From the sequence record ON637250.1: a stretch of 39,100 nt of DNA; one strand, written 5' to 3'. Under the pieces are notes generated by a model, which made no database searches, was not told the origin of the DNA, and was given only the letters and a program-made list of their open reading frames with translations. The stretch's first letter is position 1, and every line of letters starts with the position of its first letter. Positions 650 through 36,146 of the stretch are shown here, one piece after another. The translations under genes were made by a program, and so were the position numbers. The DNA comes from Escherichia phage 6925.

Positions 650-755
650 ATGCTCTTTAACAATCTGGATAAACTCTTAATGTGCGCCGATAGCGACTAA
701 CTACAGGGCCTTTGAGTCTACATCTGAAGGCCCTGACTGATAGTCACTAACTTAA
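650..755 (+). promoter_or_regulatory. Early leader with RNase III-like processing hairpin (T7 R0.3 analogue)
   Basis: GCTCTTTAACAATCTGGATAAA matches the T7 leader upstream of gene 0.3 as recalled. An imperfect inverted repeat (AGCGACTAACTACAGGGCC ... GGCCCTGACTGATAGTCACT) forms a stem with internal bubbles. Confidence 0.5.
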
Positions 756-6129: not shown

Positions 6130-6152
6130 CCTAAACTATCACTATAGGATTA
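6130..6152 (+). promoter_or_regulatory. Phage RNAP promoter (phi1.1-like)
   Basis: CCTAAACTATCACTATA|GGATTA; +1 at 6147. Confidence 0.7.
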
Positions 6153-6195
6153 GACTCAAGGTCATGACTCAAAGTCGTGGCCTTCATGATTAACC
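6148..6195 (+). promoter_or_regulatory. RNase III-like processing site (R1.1-like)
   Basis: TAGACTCAAGGTCATGACTCAAAGTCGTGGCCTTCATGATTAA has the CTCAAGG ... GTGGCC-TTTATGAT pattern of T7 R sites; the same pattern recurs at 13213 and 36093. Confidence 0.55.
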
Positions 6196-6225
6196 CTAAA
6201 TAAACACTACTGGAGATTTAACCGT

Positions 6226-8059: not shown

Positions 8060-8314
8060 ATGTCTAAAAACTTAATGTTCAACCGATTTACTCGAAGCTT
8101 CCACCTGTCGCATAGCCCATTCAGCTTCCATAAATCTAATCAACCATTACCCAGCTTTGGTAAGACAGTGGCTCTGTCTCCCACAGTTCATGCGCTAGTC
8201 ACCCGCAAGTCTATGCTGAAGGCTATGGATAAAGAACAAGTCGATGTACCTGTGGTCGTTACAAAATGGCCTCGCATTAAGCTGGCCCTTCTGGTAATTA
8301 AGGAGGTGTTTTGA
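8060..8314 (+). CDS. Gene 1.6-like hypothetical protein (84 aa)
   Basis: RBS AAAGGAGAAA. The C-terminal ...LLVIKEVF resembles a T7 class II small protein as I recall it; which T7 gene is uncertain. Confidence 0.5.
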   Translation: MSKNLMFNRFTRSFHLSHSPFSFHKSNQPLPSFGKTVALSPTVHALVTRKSMLKAMDKEQVDVPVVVTKWPRIKLALLVIKEVF

Positions 8315-8652
8315 TGGCATATTGTGATAGCACCACATACTGTGAAGCATGTAATGGTGATGACCGCTTCCCACACGTTGGTAAACTTGTAGGTAACAAG
8401 CTGCAAGAAATTGATGGTGTACGCAAGCCATCCCACTATCAGGTCTTTGATGGCGTGGAATCCATTGAGATTATCGCACGGTCAATGACTGTGAGTGAGT
8501 TCCGTGGGTTCTGCATGGGTAACGTCCTGAAGTATCGACTCCGGGCTGGTAAGAAGTCAGAGCTGGCAACTATGGAGAAGGACCTGAACAAAGCAGCCTT
8601 CTATCAGGAGCTGTTCGACCTGCATAAAGGTAAGTGCTATGCTTCCGAGTGA
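8311..8652 (+). CDS. 1.7: Gene 1.7-like protein (nucleotide kinase family), N-terminally shorter than T7 gp1.7
   Basis: KPSHYQVFDGVESIEIIARSMTVSEFRGFCMGNVLKYRLRAGKKSELATMEKDLNKAAFYQELFDLHKGKCYA aligns with the T7 gp1.7 C-terminal half as recalled. 113 aa versus 196 aa in T7. Confidence 0.8.
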   Translation: MMAYCDSTTYCEACNGDDRFPHVGKLVGNKLQEIDGVRKPSHYQVFDGVESIEIIARSMTVSEFRGFCMGNVLKYRLRAGKKSELATMEKDLNKAAFYQELFDLHKGKCYASE

Positions 8653-8734: not shown

Positions 8735-8889
8735 CTGAGGTTGAGAAGAAATACATCGTGGAGCTTGAGGGTCGCGTTCAGTCCTTCGAGGTTCCGTTGT
8801 ACGCAAAGTCTCTTGAAGAGGCTACCCTGAAGTCCCAAGAGTATGAGGACGCTGGGTTTATGGTCGGACGGATTCGTCCTGAGACCTAA
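8731..8889 (+). CDS. 2: gp2-like inhibitor of host RNA polymerase (52 aa)
   Basis: Own translation: [52 protein letters not shown]. The SFEVPLYA and AGF-V-R-RP blocks match T7 gp2 as recalled. Below the 60-aa track cutoff. Confidence 0.7.
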
Positions 8890-8907
8890 ACTATCACTGT
8901 AGGACAG
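8885..8907 (+). promoter_or_regulatory. Phage RNAP promoter (phi2.5-like), variant core CACTGTA
   Basis: CCTAAACTATCACTGTA|GGACAG, one mismatch at -2; overlaps the gene 2 stop. Confidence 0.55.
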
Positions 8908-8946
8908 ACGTCCAGTTCGTAACTTTAAATTAGGAGATTTACACCG

Positions 8947-9636
8947 ATGGCTAAAGAGCAACTGAAGACTTTCACCACTCCGGTAGCTGGTATCGTTGAG
9001 CCTTACGCATGGCTGAACAAAGCAGACACCAAGTTTAATGAGCGTGGTGAGCATAAGGTTAACCTGACGTTCGACCTGAGCGACCCGAAGGTCCGTAAGA
9101 TGATTGATGTCTTACAGAAGATTCACGACGATGCGTATGCGAAAGCACTCGCAGACCACGAGAAGAACCCACCTCAGGTTCAGCGTGGCAAGAAGCCTAT
9201 TGAACCACGTGAAGGCGACATGCCGTGGATTGAGAATGGTGACGGTACTGTTACCCTTAAGTTTAAATGCTTTGCGTCTTACCTGAAAGACGGCAAGTCC
9301 GAGCCTATCGTATTACGGTTCTACGACACCGATGCTAAACTCATCCGTGACGTCCCGAATATCTGCGCTGGGTCTAAGCTGAAGGTCAAGTTTAAAGTCC
9401 TGCCGTTCAAGTGGAACGCTGCGACTGGTGCAAGCGTTAAGCTTCAGCTTGAGTCCTGCCTTCTGGTAGAACTGAAGGAGTGGAAAGGTGATGGTGGCGA
9501 TGGTGGCTGGGGTGATGATGAAGACCTCGGTACTGGTTACAAAGCGTCAACCGTTGGTGACTTCGGTGGTGATGACTTCGGTGACGATGGTTCCGAAGGT
9601 GGTGACGATGATTACGAAGGCGATTACAACTTCTAA
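8947..9636 (+). CDS. 2.5: Single-stranded DNA-binding protein
   Basis: 229 aa, collinear with T7 gp2.5 (GDMPW, KFKC, SKLKVKFKVLPFKWN, VKLQLES), with an acidic C-terminal tail ending in F. Confidence 0.93.
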   Translation: MAKEQLKTFTTPVAGIVEPYAWLNKADTKFNERGEHKVNLTFDLSDPKVRKMIDVLQKIHDDAYAKALADHEKNPPQVQRGKKPIEPREGDMPWIENGDGTVTLKFKCFASYLKDGKSEPIVLRFYDTDAKLIRDVPNICAGSKLKVKFKVLPFKWNAATGASVKLQLESCLLVELKEWKGDGGDGGWGDDEDLGTGYKASTVGDFGGDDFGDDGSEGGDDDYEGDYNF

Positions 9637-10088
9637 TGGCCCAATGGTCTGCAAAACGGGGGCACTCTGTGGGTGCCTACCGCTCTGGACTTGAAGCCAA
9701 GAACCAGCAGTGGCTGGAACAGAACGGCGTCAAAGCGGAGTACGAAAGCCATTATATCAACTATGTGATTCCGGCTTCCGACCACAAGTACACACCAGAT
9801 TTTATCCTTCCTAACGGTATCATCGTGGAGACCAAAGGTATCTTCGATAGTGATGACCGTAAGAAGCACCTTCTGGTACGAGAACAGCACCCAGAGTTAG
9901 ACATCCGGTTCGTGTTCTCAAGTTCACGCTCCAAGTTATACAAAGGGTCTCCAACCACGTATGGCGCATGGTGCGAAAAGAACGGCTATAAGTATGCCGA
10001 TAAATTCATCCCGGTTGAGTGGCTTCGAGAGGCGACTGTACGTCTGCCTTCAGGTATACTCATCCCCAAGAAGAAAGGAGTTAAGTGA
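9636..10088 (+). CDS. 3: Endonuclease I (Holliday junction resolvase)
   Basis: 150 aa; YTPDFILPNGIIVETKG, DDRKKHLLVREQHPELDIRFVFSSSRSKLYKGSPTTYG match T7 endonuclease I. Confidence 0.93.
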   Translation: MAQWSAKRGHSVGAYRSGLEAKNQQWLEQNGVKAEYESHYINYVIPASDHKYTPDFILPNGIIVETKGIFDSDDRKKHLLVREQHPELDIRFVFSSSRSKLYKGSPTTYGAWCEKNGYKYADKFIPVEWLREATVRLPSGILIPKKKGVK

Positions 10089-10579
10089 TGAGCAAGAAGT
10101 TTAAACTGTTAGTAGATGCGCATGGCTGGCCTAGTGGGACTATAGTTACCAAGTGTGAGAATGACCCCGTACCAGATTCAAGAATGACCCTAGTTGAGTG
10201 CCAGACTCCAGGCGCATACAAACATGGGTCTAACGGCTGCAATACTCAGCCTGAGGGTATGTGGGGAGCATGGGTCCTTAATTGGAAACTTGAGGAAATC
10301 AAGCCGGAAGAGAAACTCACTGGTGTCCAAACCACTCAAGTCCTGCCAGCTTCGAGCGTACCGCCTGTGACTTTGAAGCGTGAAGTCCTGACCATCGACA
10401 AGATTGGTGTAGGCCAGACGTTCATCGTCCATGGAAAGCCTGAAGAAGTTTACGTGAAGATTAGCAACTCACACGTCTTCAACCATAAGCATCTCCAGAT
10501 GCACACCACGGACGCACAACGCTTCACCCAGCACCTGAATCTGGTTGTCGTAGAATTGGTGGTGTACAATGGTAAGTAA
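10085..10579 (+). CDS. Hypothetical protein (164 aa) between endonuclease I and the amidase; no T7 counterpart recognised
   Basis: RBS AAAGGAG. Starts GTG at 10085 or ATG at 10088, overlapping the endonuclease I stop. Confidence 0.55.
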   Translation: MMSKKFKLLVDAHGWPSGTIVTKCENDPVPDSRMTLVECQTPGAYKHGSNGCNTQPEGMWGAWVLNWKLEEIKPEEKLTGVQTTQVLPASSVPPVTLKREVLTIDKIGVGQTFIVHGKPEEVYVKISNSHVFNHKHLQMHTTDAQRFTQHLNLVVVELVVYNGK

Positions 10580-11027
10580 GGTACAGTTCAATCCACGGTC
10601 CCGGACCGACGCTATCTTCGTACACTGTTCGGCTACCAAGCCAGAGATGGACATCGGGGTAGAGACCATCCGTATGTGGCACAAGCAGCAAGGCTGGCTG
10701 GACGTAGGATACCACTTCATCATCAAGCGCGATGGCACTGTGGAAGAGGGACGCCCGGTCAATGTCGTAGGGTCACACGTTAAGGACTGGAACTCACGGT
10801 CTGTAGGCGTCTGCCTTGTAGGTGGAATTGACGCTAAGGGCAAGTTTGAAGCTAACTTCACTCCGGCCCAGATGAACTCCCTGCGCAACAAGCTGGCTGA
10901 CCTGAAAGTCCTGTATCCTCAGGCAGAAATCAAAGCACACCATGACGTAGCACCTAAGGCGTGTCCAAGTTTTGACTTGCAACGCTGGCTGTCTACCAAC
11001 GAACTTGTCACTTCAGACCGTGGTTAA
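10569..11027 (+). CDS. 3.5: N-acetylmuramoyl-L-alanine amidase (T7 lysozyme, RNAP inhibitor)
   Basis: 152 aa; DAIFVHCSATKP, WLDVGYHFIIKRDGTVEEGR, GVCLVGGID, HHDVAPKACPSFDL and C-terminal NELVTSDRG match T7 gp3.5. Confidence 0.95.
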   Translation: MVSKVQFNPRSRTDAIFVHCSATKPEMDIGVETIRMWHKQQGWLDVGYHFIIKRDGTVEEGRPVNVVGSHVKDWNSRSVGVCLVGGIDAKGKFEANFTPAQMNSLRNKLADLKVLYPQAEIKAHHDVAPKACPSFDLQRWLSTNELVTSDRG

Positions 11028-11051
11028 TAAACTCTAATGGAGAACAGCTCA

Positions 11052-11267
11052 ATGATTAAACTTATCGAATTTCTTGGTCGTCTGGTGGTGCGTGGCTATC
11101 GTCGTGCTGCAGTACTGGAACGAAAGGTAGAAAAGAAGACTGCTGACGGTGCGGCTGATGCTGCTGCGCTGGCTGACAAGCTGACCATCGCATCACTGGA
11201 AGCTGGCATGAAGGCGCGTCAAGCTGATACCAAAGCTGACCAGTTGGCTCAGTTCTTCAAAGCCTAA
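11052..11267 (+). CDS. Hypothetical protein, predicted helical (about 71 aa); alternative start at 11037
   Basis: GGAGA sits 9 nt before the ATG at 11052; Ala- and Lys-rich sequence. Confidence 0.45.
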   Translation: MIKLIEFLGRLVVRGYRRAAVLERKVEKKTADGAADAAALADKLTIASLEAGMKARQADTKADQLAQFFKA

Positions 11268-11285
11268 ACTATCACCTTAGGGATG
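11263..11285 (+). promoter_or_regulatory. Possible weak or variant phage promoter (phi4-like), core CACCTTA
   Basis: CCTAAACTATCACCTTA|GGGATG: the upstream half is exact, with two mismatches at -4/-3. Confidence 0.35.
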
Positions 11286-11332
11286 GGACTATGAGTCCTG
11301 TCCCTTTGTGCGCATTATTGATTAAGGAGTGA

Positions 11333-13047: not shown

Positions 13048-13212
13048 TTGCTAAGAAAACTTAAAGCTCGCTACCATCGGTTCATGTACAAATGGTGGAG
13101 TGATGAAGCAACCTGCCTGTCCAACATTCTTGGAGACCAGCGGTTCAACTCTGAGGCATGGAAGAAAGCTAACCGGAAGTTCATGTATCACTTCTTGCGT
13201 ACAGACTTCTAG
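13048..13212 (+). CDS. Hypothetical small basic protein (about 54 aa), putative TTG start
   Basis: AAGGAGGA sits 5 nt before the TTG at 13048; the track ORF 13015..13212 begins inside gene 4. Confidence 0.4.
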
Positions 13213-13258
13213 GTCTAGACTCAAGGTCATTCACATAGAGTGGCCTTTATGATTAGAC
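13213..13258 (+). promoter_or_regulatory. RNase III-like processing site before the DNA polymerase gene
   Basis: TAGACTCAAGGTCATTCACATAGAGTGGCCTTTATGATTAGA, same family as 6148 and 36093. Confidence 0.55.
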
Positions 13259-36092: not shown

Positions 36093-36146
36093 GTTAGACT
36101 CAAGGTCATTACTGTATGTAGTGGCCTTTATGGTTAACACTAACTA
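36093..36146 (+). promoter_or_regulatory. RNase III-like processing site (R18.5-like)
   Basis: GTTAGACTCAAGGTCATTACTGTATGTAGTGGCCTTTATGGTTAAC, same family as 6148 and 13213. Confidence 0.55.

What the first reader, a model, noticed from the sequence alone, without database searches (positions are those of the whole stretch)
10085..10579. Unknown 164-aa gene between endonuclease I and the amidase
In T7 gene 3.5 follows gene 3 with no gene between. Here a well-supported ORF (RBS AAAGGAG, start overlapping the gene 3 stop) encodes a protein I cannot relate to any T7 product. Its position puts it in the middle-gene class, where T7-like phages carry host-takeover and anti-defence functions.
Basis: inference. 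Interest (0 to 1): 0.55.

Follow-up and report, generated by a model that had tools for sequence, protein, structure and literature searches.

The report
K1F-type phage gene 3.2, function unknown
The ORF is a real, selected gene: the already catalogued but never studied "gene 3.2" of K1F-like (Kayfunavirus) phages. It joins a strongly conserved 70-residue core to a fast-evolving, swappable N-terminal SH3-like module, so it is a reasonable but unproven candidate for a host-interaction protein.

Summary
The window is a Kayfunavirus (K1F-like, T7-related) genome. An ORF lies between endonuclease I (gene 3) and the amidase (gene 3.5), a junction where T7 has no gene.

- **Start codon:** the conserved start is ATG 10088, not GTG 10085, giving 163 aa. 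The RBS AAAGGAG sits 7 nt upstream.
- **Not a new gene:** K1F and EcoDS1 annotate it as gp3.2 (PHROG 16385). An identical copy is in GenBank.
- **No functional match:** Pfam, NCBIfam, PADLOC, PDB sequences and T7 give nothing. A search of 1.84 billion protein representatives found 17 clusters; every genomic context examined was T7-like phage.
- **Modular build:** the C-terminal 70 aa (dN/dS about 0.09) appear genus-wide and stand alone as a 74-aa protein in about half the phages. The N-terminal 73 aa are predicted to form an SH3-like barrel. They are 48–84% identical between phages whose flanking genes are mostly 92–100% identical (dN/dS about 0.5). In other phages at least six unrelated modules replace them.

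Function is unknown. My best guess (about 0.4) is a cytoplasmic middle-gene protein-binding adaptor aimed at host factors. Interest is moderate.

The parts
8886..8908 (+). Phage-RNA-polymerase promoter copy (CTAAACTATCACTGTAGGAC...) upstream of gene 2.5. It probably drives the 2.5-3-3.2-3.5-3.7 unit.
   Evidence: Member of the 10-11-copy direct-repeat family CTAAACTATCACTATAGG. Its role as a promoter is inferred from T7-like promoter architecture.
9636..10088 (+). Gene 3, endonuclease I. Its stop codon TGA (10086-10088) overlaps the gene 3.2 start.
   Evidence: ORF; 64% identical to T7 gp3; homologs annotated as endonuclease I.
10074..10080 (+). Ribosome-binding site AAAGGAG, 7 nt before ATG 10088.
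   Evidence: Read; the same RBS and spacing occur in all 26 homologous loci.
10088..10579 (+). Gene 3.2 coding sequence (163 aa plus stop TAA), a homolog of K1F/EcoDS1 gp3.2.
   Evidence: (PHROG 16385, E 3e-95, full length).
10088..10306 (+). N-terminal module A (aa 1-73): predicted SH3-like small beta-barrel with a conserved scaffold (GWPxGTIVTKC...LVE...YKHG...QPxGMWGAWV...LEEI) and hypervariable positions.
10307..10366 (+). Pro/Ser/Thr-rich linker (aa 74-93, ...LTGVQTTQVLPASSVPPVT). It is shared by long forms that carry different N-modules and is probably flexible.
   Evidence: Alignments; AF2 pLDDT below 50; dN/dS 0.25. Flexibility is inferred.
10367..10576 (+). Conserved C-terminal core module (aa 94-163), with signature VGxxF...Y(V/M)x(I/M)SNSHxFN...QMHxT...RF. 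This is the part common to all gp3.2 proteins and equals PHROG 15211.
   Evidence: PHROG 15211, E 4.5e-39, aa 94-163. 220 phage records. Stands alone as a 74-aa protein in Dev2, SH4 and others. dN/dS 0.085-0.088. Invariant columns. Structure not confidently predicted (pLDDT 58).
10569..11027 (+). Gene 3.5, N-acetylmuramoyl-L-alanine amidase (T7 lysozyme homolog). Its start overlaps the end of gene 3.2 by 11 nt.
   Evidence: ORF; 70% identical to T7 gp3.5; annotations.
11264..11286 (+). Next phage-promoter copy (CTAAACTATCACCTTAGGGA...), marking the downstream end of the unit before gene 4.
   Evidence: Repeat family D2. Promoter function is inferred.

Best explanation
Gene 3.2 encodes a soluble cytoplasmic protein made during the middle (DNA-metabolism) phase of infection. 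I propose that it acts by protein-protein binding as a two-part adaptor.

- **Core:** the conserved 70-residue C-terminal module is the functional core. It is kept by every Kayfunavirus whatever its host genus. It would engage a partner that is conserved across Enterobacterales, in the way small T7 middle proteins such as gp2, gp1.2, gp5.5 and gp5.7 each bind one conserved host protein.
- **Specificity module:** the optional N-terminal module, tethered by a Pro-rich linker, would add or retarget binding to a strain-variable host factor, possibly a defence protein. In this window it is an SH3-like barrel with variable loops.

Shown: the gene is real and selected, it is modular, module A is predicted to have an SH3-like fold, and the two halves evolve very differently. 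Inferred: cytoplasmic location, binding as the mode of action, and a host rather than a phage target.
For: 1. Real, expressed-looking gene: conserved RBS and ATG, and coupling to the gene 3 stop.
2. Middle-gene unit between promoter copies at 8886 and 11264.
3. The core is under purifying selection as strong as the neighbouring enzymes: dN/dS 0.085, against 0.15 and 0.11.
4. The core appears in 220 phage records, the same number that carry a Kayfunavirus-grade gene 3. Hosts include Escherichia, Salmonella, Enterobacter, Citrobacter, Cronobacter, Klebsiella, Providencia, Pectobacterium, Hafnia and Kosakonia.
5. The N-terminal part is a local hot spot. It is 48-84% identical where gene 3 is mostly 92-100% (87-88% in two loci) and gene 3.5 mostly 92-99% (83-88% in two loci). 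dN/dS is 0.48, against 0.088 for the core.
6. The N-terminal part is replaced by at least six unrelated modules, is absent, or is doubled as A-B-C. It is always fused in frame.
7. Module A is predicted as an SH3-like barrel, a classic protein-binding scaffold. Its core residues are invariant and other positions are variable.
8. No catalytic or other known family matches.
9. No transmembrane segment or signal peptide is visible in the sequence (direct reading).
Against: 1. No binding partner or phenotype is known. There is no hit to any known anti-defence or defence model and no mention in screens or literature.
2. Genus-wide presence and strong conservation of the core are atypical for anti-defence accessory genes, which are usually patchy. 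These features fit a phage-internal role equally well.
3. Positive selection is not demonstrated. No site was significant, and the most variable sites are compatible with neutral drift.
Confidence: 0.4

Rival explanations
1. Phage-internal accessory factor. The conserved core binds and modulates a Kayfunavirus protein of the same unit, either endonuclease I (gene 3) or the amidase/RNA-polymerase regulator (gene 3.5). It would tune host-DNA breakdown, junction resolution or the transcription/lysis switch. The N-modules would be dispensable decorations.
For: The gene sits directly after endonuclease I in every genomic context examined, usually overlapping its stop codon. This includes the most divergent homologs, which are 37-62% identical in the core. 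In almost all loci it also overlaps the amidase start. Its presence looks genus-wide and its conservation is core-gene-like. It is absent from bacterial genomes.
Against: T7 and about 1230 other phage records carrying endonuclease I manage without it. Tight overlaps are the rule throughout T7-like genomes, so they say little. A purely internal role does not explain the fast-evolving, cassette-swapped N-modules. In L044 another ORF separates it from the amidase.
Confidence: 0.3
2. Nucleic-acid-binding small beta-barrel protein (Sm/KOW/Tudor/Hpy99I-barrel-like) acting on phage DNA or RNA during replication, recombination or transcription.
Confidence: 0.12
3. Cell-wall-binding (SH3b-like) helper of the adjacent amidase, improving peptidoglycan targeting at lysis.
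Against: No Pfam SH3b family matches even at E of 10 or less. About half of the phages lack any N-module. Peptidoglycan is conserved in Enterobacterales, so a hypervariable or interchangeable binding domain is not expected. No export signal is present.
Confidence: 0.04
4. Selfish insertion, for example a minimal HNH/beta-beta-alpha-Me homing nuclease like T7 genes 3.8, 5.3 and 7.7. The motif SNSH..FN......H would be the suggestive feature.
For: It occupies an intergenic slot that is empty in T7. The invariant residues His, Asn and His lie in a predicted hairpin-helix region.
Against: No HNH or other nuclease family hit at E of 10 or less. The His-to-Asn spacing of 3 residues is far shorter than in known HNH motifs (established knowledge of the family), and there are no Cys or His zinc ligands. 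The gene is fixed at one locus in every genome rather than sporadic.
Confidence: 0.03

Closest known systems
gp3.2 of Escherichia phages K1F and EcoDS1 (PHROG 16385; core = PHROG 15211; also annotated 3.01 in CR44b/CR8 and gp3.2 in Cronobacter phage Dev2)
   Same: Same locus between genes 3 and 3.5. 83-87% protein identity to the K1F and EcoDS1 proteins. Full-length PHROG match at E 3e-95. A 100% identical DNA copy exists in Escherichia phage vB_EcoP-22664BS1.
   Different: Nothing of substance; this is the same family. The family has no assigned function and appears in the searchable literature only in an annotation table.
Small host-directed middle/early proteins of T7 (gp2, gp1.2, gp5.5, gp5.7, gp5.9, gp4.5)
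   Same: Small, non-structural and cytoplasmic. They are transcribed with the DNA-metabolism genes and have no enzymatic motif. The conserved core is about 70 aa, like these inhibitors. The window itself carries homologs of gp2, gp1.2, gp5.5 and gp5.7.
   Different: No sequence similarity to any of them. Unlike them, gp3.2 carries an exchangeable N-terminal module. No target is known.
SH3-like small beta-barrel domains (eukaryotic SH3, Xrn1 SH3-like region, bacterial SH3b)
   Different: 9-20% identity and no Pfam SH3 family match. A long 39-58 loop carries the conserved motifs YKHG and QPxGMWG. The resemblance is at fold level only and says nothing about the ligand.
Phage 'accessory regions' holding counter-defence genes (Silas et al., bioRxiv 10.1101/2023.04.06.535777)
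   Same: A variable segment bracketed by highly conserved core genes. That paper uses this signature to nominate counter-defence genes.
   Different: Here the variable part is a domain fused to a conserved core, not a set of separate genes. No gp3.2 peptide occurs in that study's supplementary files or in those of its follow-up.

Membership tests
Kayfunavirus gp3.2 family (PHROG 16385 / 15211) | Significant full-length sequence match to the family profile | tested here: met
   PHROG 16385 at E 3.2e-95 over aa 1-163; PHROG 15211 at E 4.5e-39 over aa 94-163. 83-87% identity to K1F and EcoDS1 gp3.2.
Kayfunavirus gp3.2 family (PHROG 16385 / 15211) | Position immediately downstream of endonuclease I and upstream of the amidase in a T7-like genome | tested here: met
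SH3-like small beta-barrel fold (N-terminal module) | Five-stranded barrel topology superposable on SH3 domains | tested here: inconclusive
Bacterial SH3b cell-wall-binding domains | Match to an SH3b sequence family (the Pfam models covering bacterial SH3 domains) | tested here: not met
   No Pfam family at E of 10 or less for the window protein or for 15 homologs.
HNH / beta-beta-alpha-Me nucleases | HNH motif with canonical spacing and a profile match | tested here: not met
   No Pfam or NCBIfam hit. His36-Asn39 spacing in the core is 3 residues. No Cys ligands in the core.
Known anti-defence / defence protein families (PADLOC-DB) | Profile match | tested here: not met
   0 families at E of 10 or less for the window protein and the Vec13-type homolog. 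PADLOC models defence proteins rather than anti-defence proteins, so this is a weak test.
Imm11 immunity proteins (PF07791) | Score above the Pfam gathering threshold (22.1 bits) | tested here: not met
   Only 11-13 bits over 27 residues in 3-4 homologs, and none for the window protein.
T7 gene products | Detectable homolog in the T7 genome | tested here: not met
   hmmsearch --max with profiles of modules A, B, C and D against T7 six-frame ORFs: best E 0.1-0.9.
Host-takeover / anti-defence protein (functional class) | A demonstrated host target, toxicity, or defence-dependent plating phenotype | not testable with these tools
   Needs experiments. No report was found in the literature searches.

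The most novel reading that the evidence does not exclude
Gene 3.2 is a modular counter-defence hub. A conserved C-terminal effector or anchor domain is fused through a flexible linker to cassette-exchangeable N-terminal recognition modules: an SH3-like barrel with hypervariable positions here, and at least six other unrelated modules elsewhere. Each module would recognise a different strain-variable host immunity protein. Recombination at this one locus would then retarget the phage's counter-defence, making it a phage analogue of polymorphic toxin and immunity architectures.
Probability: 0.15. Interest if true: 0.75.

Novelty: new member of a known kind. Interest (0 to 1): 0.4.

Why it matters
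Kayfunaviruses (K1F, LM33_P1 and relatives) are used and engineered as therapeutic phages against encapsulated and multidrug-resistant E. coli and other Enterobacterales. Gene 3.2 appears to be kept by every member of the genus, yet it has no T7 counterpart and no known function.

Its design, a conserved core plus a swappable fast-evolving module, makes it a well-defined and cheap target for deletion, domain-swap and pull-down experiments. If the N-modules bind host immunity or other strain-variable factors, the locus would help explain and engineer strain-level host range. If the core binds a conserved host protein, it would add a new small inhibitor to the T7-type host-takeover set.

If it turns out to be an internal accessory of endonuclease I or the lysozyme, it is of specialist interest only.

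Tried and rejected
- **Family and sequence searches, all negative:** Pfam, NCBIfam and PADLOC scans. PDB sequence searches with the protein and with a core-domain profile gave only chance-level hits with E above 0.2.
- **Exhaustive profile search:** 1.84 billion representatives yielded only 17 clusters, several of them fragments or frameshifts. The contexts I looked up were T7-like phage.
- **Internal duplication:** the idea that modules A, B, C and D are diverged copies of one barrel was not supported by hhalign (probabilities 0.1-21%).
- **HNH reading of the SNSH..FN..H motif:** rejected on spacing and lack of any profile hit.
- **Imm11 hit:** sub-threshold, so treated as chance.
- **Site-wise positive selection:** a SLAC-like parsimony count on 21 sequences found no significant site. 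The hypervariable sites fit near-neutral evolution.
- **Bacterial copies:** none among representative genomes of 185,579 species.
- **Two searches that failed technically:** a chimeric query of five rare N-modules and a query with module B alone returned essentially nothing, not even the source proteins. They are uninformative. tblastn against phage records showed module B in 27 records, each annotated match lying beside endonuclease I.
- **Literature:** no functional study found. No gp3.2 peptides occur in the supplements of the two accessory-gene screens.

Full report
**What the window is.** The 495-nt segment is 100% identical to Escherichia phage vB_EcoP-22664BS1 and 99.4-99.8% identical to LM33_P1, HC12 and other Kayfunavirus genomes. 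It is 85-88% identical to K1F and EcoDS1, where the gene under the match is annotated "3.2: gp3.2". The window is therefore a K1F-like member of the T7 group (Autographiviridae, Studiervirinae).

**Checking the observation.** The ORF finder lists 10085..10579 on the + strand, 164 aa from a GTG. The sequence shows AAAGGAG at 10074-10080. The gene 3 stop TGA lies at 10086-10088 and an ATG at 10088-10090.
- In all 26 related loci first examined, the ORF begins at an ATG 7 nt after AAAGGAG. Many read ...GGAGTTAAGAAATG and have no GTG. The likely product is therefore 163 aa from ATG 10088.
- The stop TAA at 10577-10579 overlaps the amidase start at 10569.
- T7 has gene 3 ending and gene 3.5 starting at the same base, 10706.
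- Profiles of each gp3.2 module find nothing in a six-frame translation of T7.

**The gene is real.**
- The ORF is intact in all 41 loci parsed.
- Pairwise Nei-Gojobori estimates among six loci give dN/dS of 0.085 for the C-terminal 66 codons. I excluded the 4 codons that overlap gene 3.5. The N-terminal 72 codons give 0.29, or 0.46-0.84 in the pairs where dS is not saturated. Gene 3 gives 0.15 and gene 3.5 gives 0.11.
- A tree-based parsimony count on 21 distinct sequences gives 0.48 for the N-terminal module, 0.25 for the linker and 0.088 for the core.

**Transcription context.** Copies of the phage promoter CTAAACTATCACTATAGG occur at 2810, 6131, 8012, 8886, 11264, 17303, 20141, 21176, 25958, 33234 and 38497. 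Gene 3.2 lies in the unit between 8886 and 11264 with genes 2.5, 3, 3.5 and 3.7. This is the counterpart of the T7 class II region. No promoter copy lies inside the gene. The simple sigma-70 and terminator scan found nothing beyond chance expectation.

**Anatomy.** Alignments show three parts.

1. **Residues 1-73, module A.**
   - Scaffold residues are invariant: G13 W14, G17 T18 I19 V20, C23, D26 P27, L35 V36 E37, G42, H46 G47, G50, Q54 P55, G57 M58 W59 G60, W62.
   - Hypervariable positions lie between them: 9-12, 16, 24-25, 28-33, 39-43, 48-52 and 64-67.
   - Sites 11, 28, 30, 43, 51, 64, 66 and 67 carry 7-13 different residues in 21 sequences.
2. **Residues 74-93, a Pro/Ser/Thr-rich linker.**
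3. **Residues 94-163, the core.** Its signature is VGxxF...Y(V/M)x(I/M)SNSHxFN...QMHxT...RF.

The core is the only universal part.
- It stands alone as a 74-76-aa protein in Dev2, SH4 and many Salmonella and E. coli phages.
- It is preceded by module A in 55 phage records and by an unrelated module B in 27.
- At least five further unrelated modules precede it elsewhere: P0124, P0125, the P0127/CR8 type, P0130 and P0135.
- A few metagenomic proteins of 221-227 aa carry A-B-core.
- Profile-profile comparison finds no relationship between modules A, B, core and the CR8-type module.
- None of the alternative modules matches a PHROG on its own.

**Distribution.**
- tblastn finds the core in 220 of 50,697 phage records. 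In every listed row that carries annotation, the match lies in a hypothetical protein beside the amidase or endolysin.
- Gene 3 proteins at least 80% identical to the window's also number 220. About 1230 further records have a more distant endonuclease I and no core. I did not cross-check the two lists record by record, but every sampled record agreed.
- An exhaustive HMMER search of 1.84 billion representative proteins found only 17 clusters, several of them fragments or frameshifts.
- The most divergent members, 37-62% identical in the core, are again encoded directly after Phage_endo_I in T7-like contigs.
- No copy exists in one genome from each of 185,579 bacterial and archaeal species.
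- The core therefore looks like a genus-signature gene of virulent Kayfunavirus-like phages, not a sporadic accessory gene.

**Local divergence pattern.** I compared 44 other loci with the window.
- Among the 20 loci that carry module A, gene 3 is mostly 92-100% identical, with 87-88% in two loci. Gene 3.5 is mostly 92-99%, with 83-88% in two. The core is 87-97%.
- Module A itself is only 48-84% identical. In the remaining loci it is replaced or absent.
- Some phages with 100% identical gene 3 and 98% identical gene 3.5 carry the short form, whose core is 77% identical.
- The whole gene thus behaves as a recombining cassette. The N-terminal module is the fastest-changing piece between two very stable neighbours.
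- An independent published table shows the same pattern. In Hafnia phage Ca the neighbours have 97-100% best hits, while this ORF has 83% (PMC8861465).
- Positive selection is not demonstrated. No site passed a binomial test, and the number of changes at the most variable sites is about what neutral evolution would give at the domain's synonymous rate.

**Structure.**
- AlphaFold2 on a 20-sequence alignment gives a confident five-stranded barrel for the N-terminal module (block-mean pLDDT about 63-92 over aa 1-70). Everything from residue 74 onward scores below 50.
- This is a fold-level resemblance of modest strength.
- The core may need a partner or self-association to fold. That is my inference, suggested by the long hydrophobic C-terminal strand LNLVVVELVVY.
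- BFVD returned only uncharacterised or generically "SH3-like" phage proteins.

**Function.** Nothing identifies it. Pfam, NCBIfam, PADLOC and PDB sequences give no significant match. A sub-threshold Imm11 hit, 11-13 bits against a cutoff of 22.1, appears in a few homologs but not in the window protein, and I treat it as chance. The searchable literature mentions gp3.2 only in an annotation table. Characteristic peptides occur in no paper and in neither accessory-gene screen supplement.

**Most likely mechanism.**
- The protein has no signal peptide, no membrane segment and no catalytic signature.
- Its universal part is the size of the known T7 inhibitors of conserved host proteins, and it is conserved across phages of ten host genera.
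- Its optional part is a predicted protein-binding scaffold with variable positions. It is always fused in frame through a shared linker, and it is exchanged like a cassette.
- I therefore favour a cytoplasmic, middle-phase binding adaptor (confidence about 0.4). The core would hold a conserved partner, and the N-module would add or redirect binding to a strain-variable factor.
- The main rival (about 0.3) is a phage-internal accessory of endonuclease I or of the amidase/RNA-polymerase regulator. The invariant position and genus-wide presence favour it. The existence of over a thousand phages that have endonuclease I but lack the gene weakens it, as do the variable N-modules.
- Nucleic-acid binding (0.12), cell-wall binding (0.04) and a selfish nuclease (0.03) are less likely, for the reasons given under the rivals.

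**Context that may matter.** tblastn with T7 proteins finds no homolog in the window for genes 0.4-0.7, 1.4, 1.5, 2.8, 3.8, 4.1, 4.3, 4.5, 4.7, 5.9, 6.3, 7 and 7.7. Ocr-like, gp1.2-like, gp2, gp5.5-like and gp5.7 proteins are present. gp3.2 could stand in for one of the missing host-directed functions. There is no evidence for this. The core is not acidic, so a gp5.9-like DNA mimic is unlikely.

**Verdict.**
It is a middle gene absent from T7 and of unknown function, and the anti-defence idea remains plausible but untested.
- The gene is already catalogued as K1F gp3.2, PHROG 16385.
- Two features do not appear in the literature I could search: the conserved-core-plus-exchangeable-module architecture, and the apparent genus-wide presence of the core.
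- Interest is moderate at 0.4. It is a clean, testable candidate, but nothing here is yet surprising to a specialist.

Noticed in passing
window 8311-8652: The gene 1.7 nucleotide-kinase homolog is short (113 aa from a TTG in the ORF list). It matches only the C-terminal half of the family profile (PHROG 2585 positions 89-173 of 175) and T7 gp1.7 residues from about 95 onward. K1F annotates 155 aa and Vec13 111 aa, so this gene also varies at its N-terminus within the genus.
   Followed up: partly
window 723-752, 1040-1069, 1768-1797: Three copies of a roughly 30-nt repeat (GGCCTGACTGATAGTCACTAAC...) lie 10-30 nt upstream of the early ORFs starting at 759, 1097 (Ocr-like) and 1813. They may be processing or regulatory sites of the early transcript.
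   Followed up: no
window 6150-6202 and 36094-36146; also 13210-13230: A 53-nt repeat, 83% identical, contains TAGACTCAAGGTCAT. A third partial copy lies at 13210. Each sits just after a phage promoter or between genes. The placement resembles T7 RNase III sites.
   Followed up: no
window, whole: tblastn finds no homolog of T7 genes 0.4, 0.5, 0.6, 0.7 (kinase), 1.4, 1.5, 2.8, 3.8, 4.1, 4.3, 4.5, 4.7, 5.9 (RecBCD inhibitor), 6.3, 7 or 7.7. gp1.2-like and gp5.5-like proteins are detectable only by PHROG profiles.
   Followed up: partly
L044 4456-4812 (metagenomic T7-like contig SRR31019977_6544): In the most divergent gp3.2-bearing phage, an extra 118-aa ORF with no PHROG match lies between the gp3.2 homolog and the amidase. 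The slot can therefore hold more than one gene.
   Followed up: partly
window 11037-11267: Gene 3.7 (76 aa, PHROG 1950, unknown function) follows the amidase. It is another conserved gene of unknown function and has no T7 homolog.
   Followed up: no
window 10190-10432 and 10469-10891, minus strand: Antisense ORFs of 80 and 140 aa overlap genes 3.2 and 3.5. No evidence supports them, and the selection pattern fits the + strand frames.
   Followed up: partly
P0123, P0131, P0132, P0122 (metagenomic proteins): Several database 'homologs' are frameshifted or truncated versions of module A, or internal deletions of it. They are probably assembly or sequencing artefacts, or defective variants.
   Followed up: no
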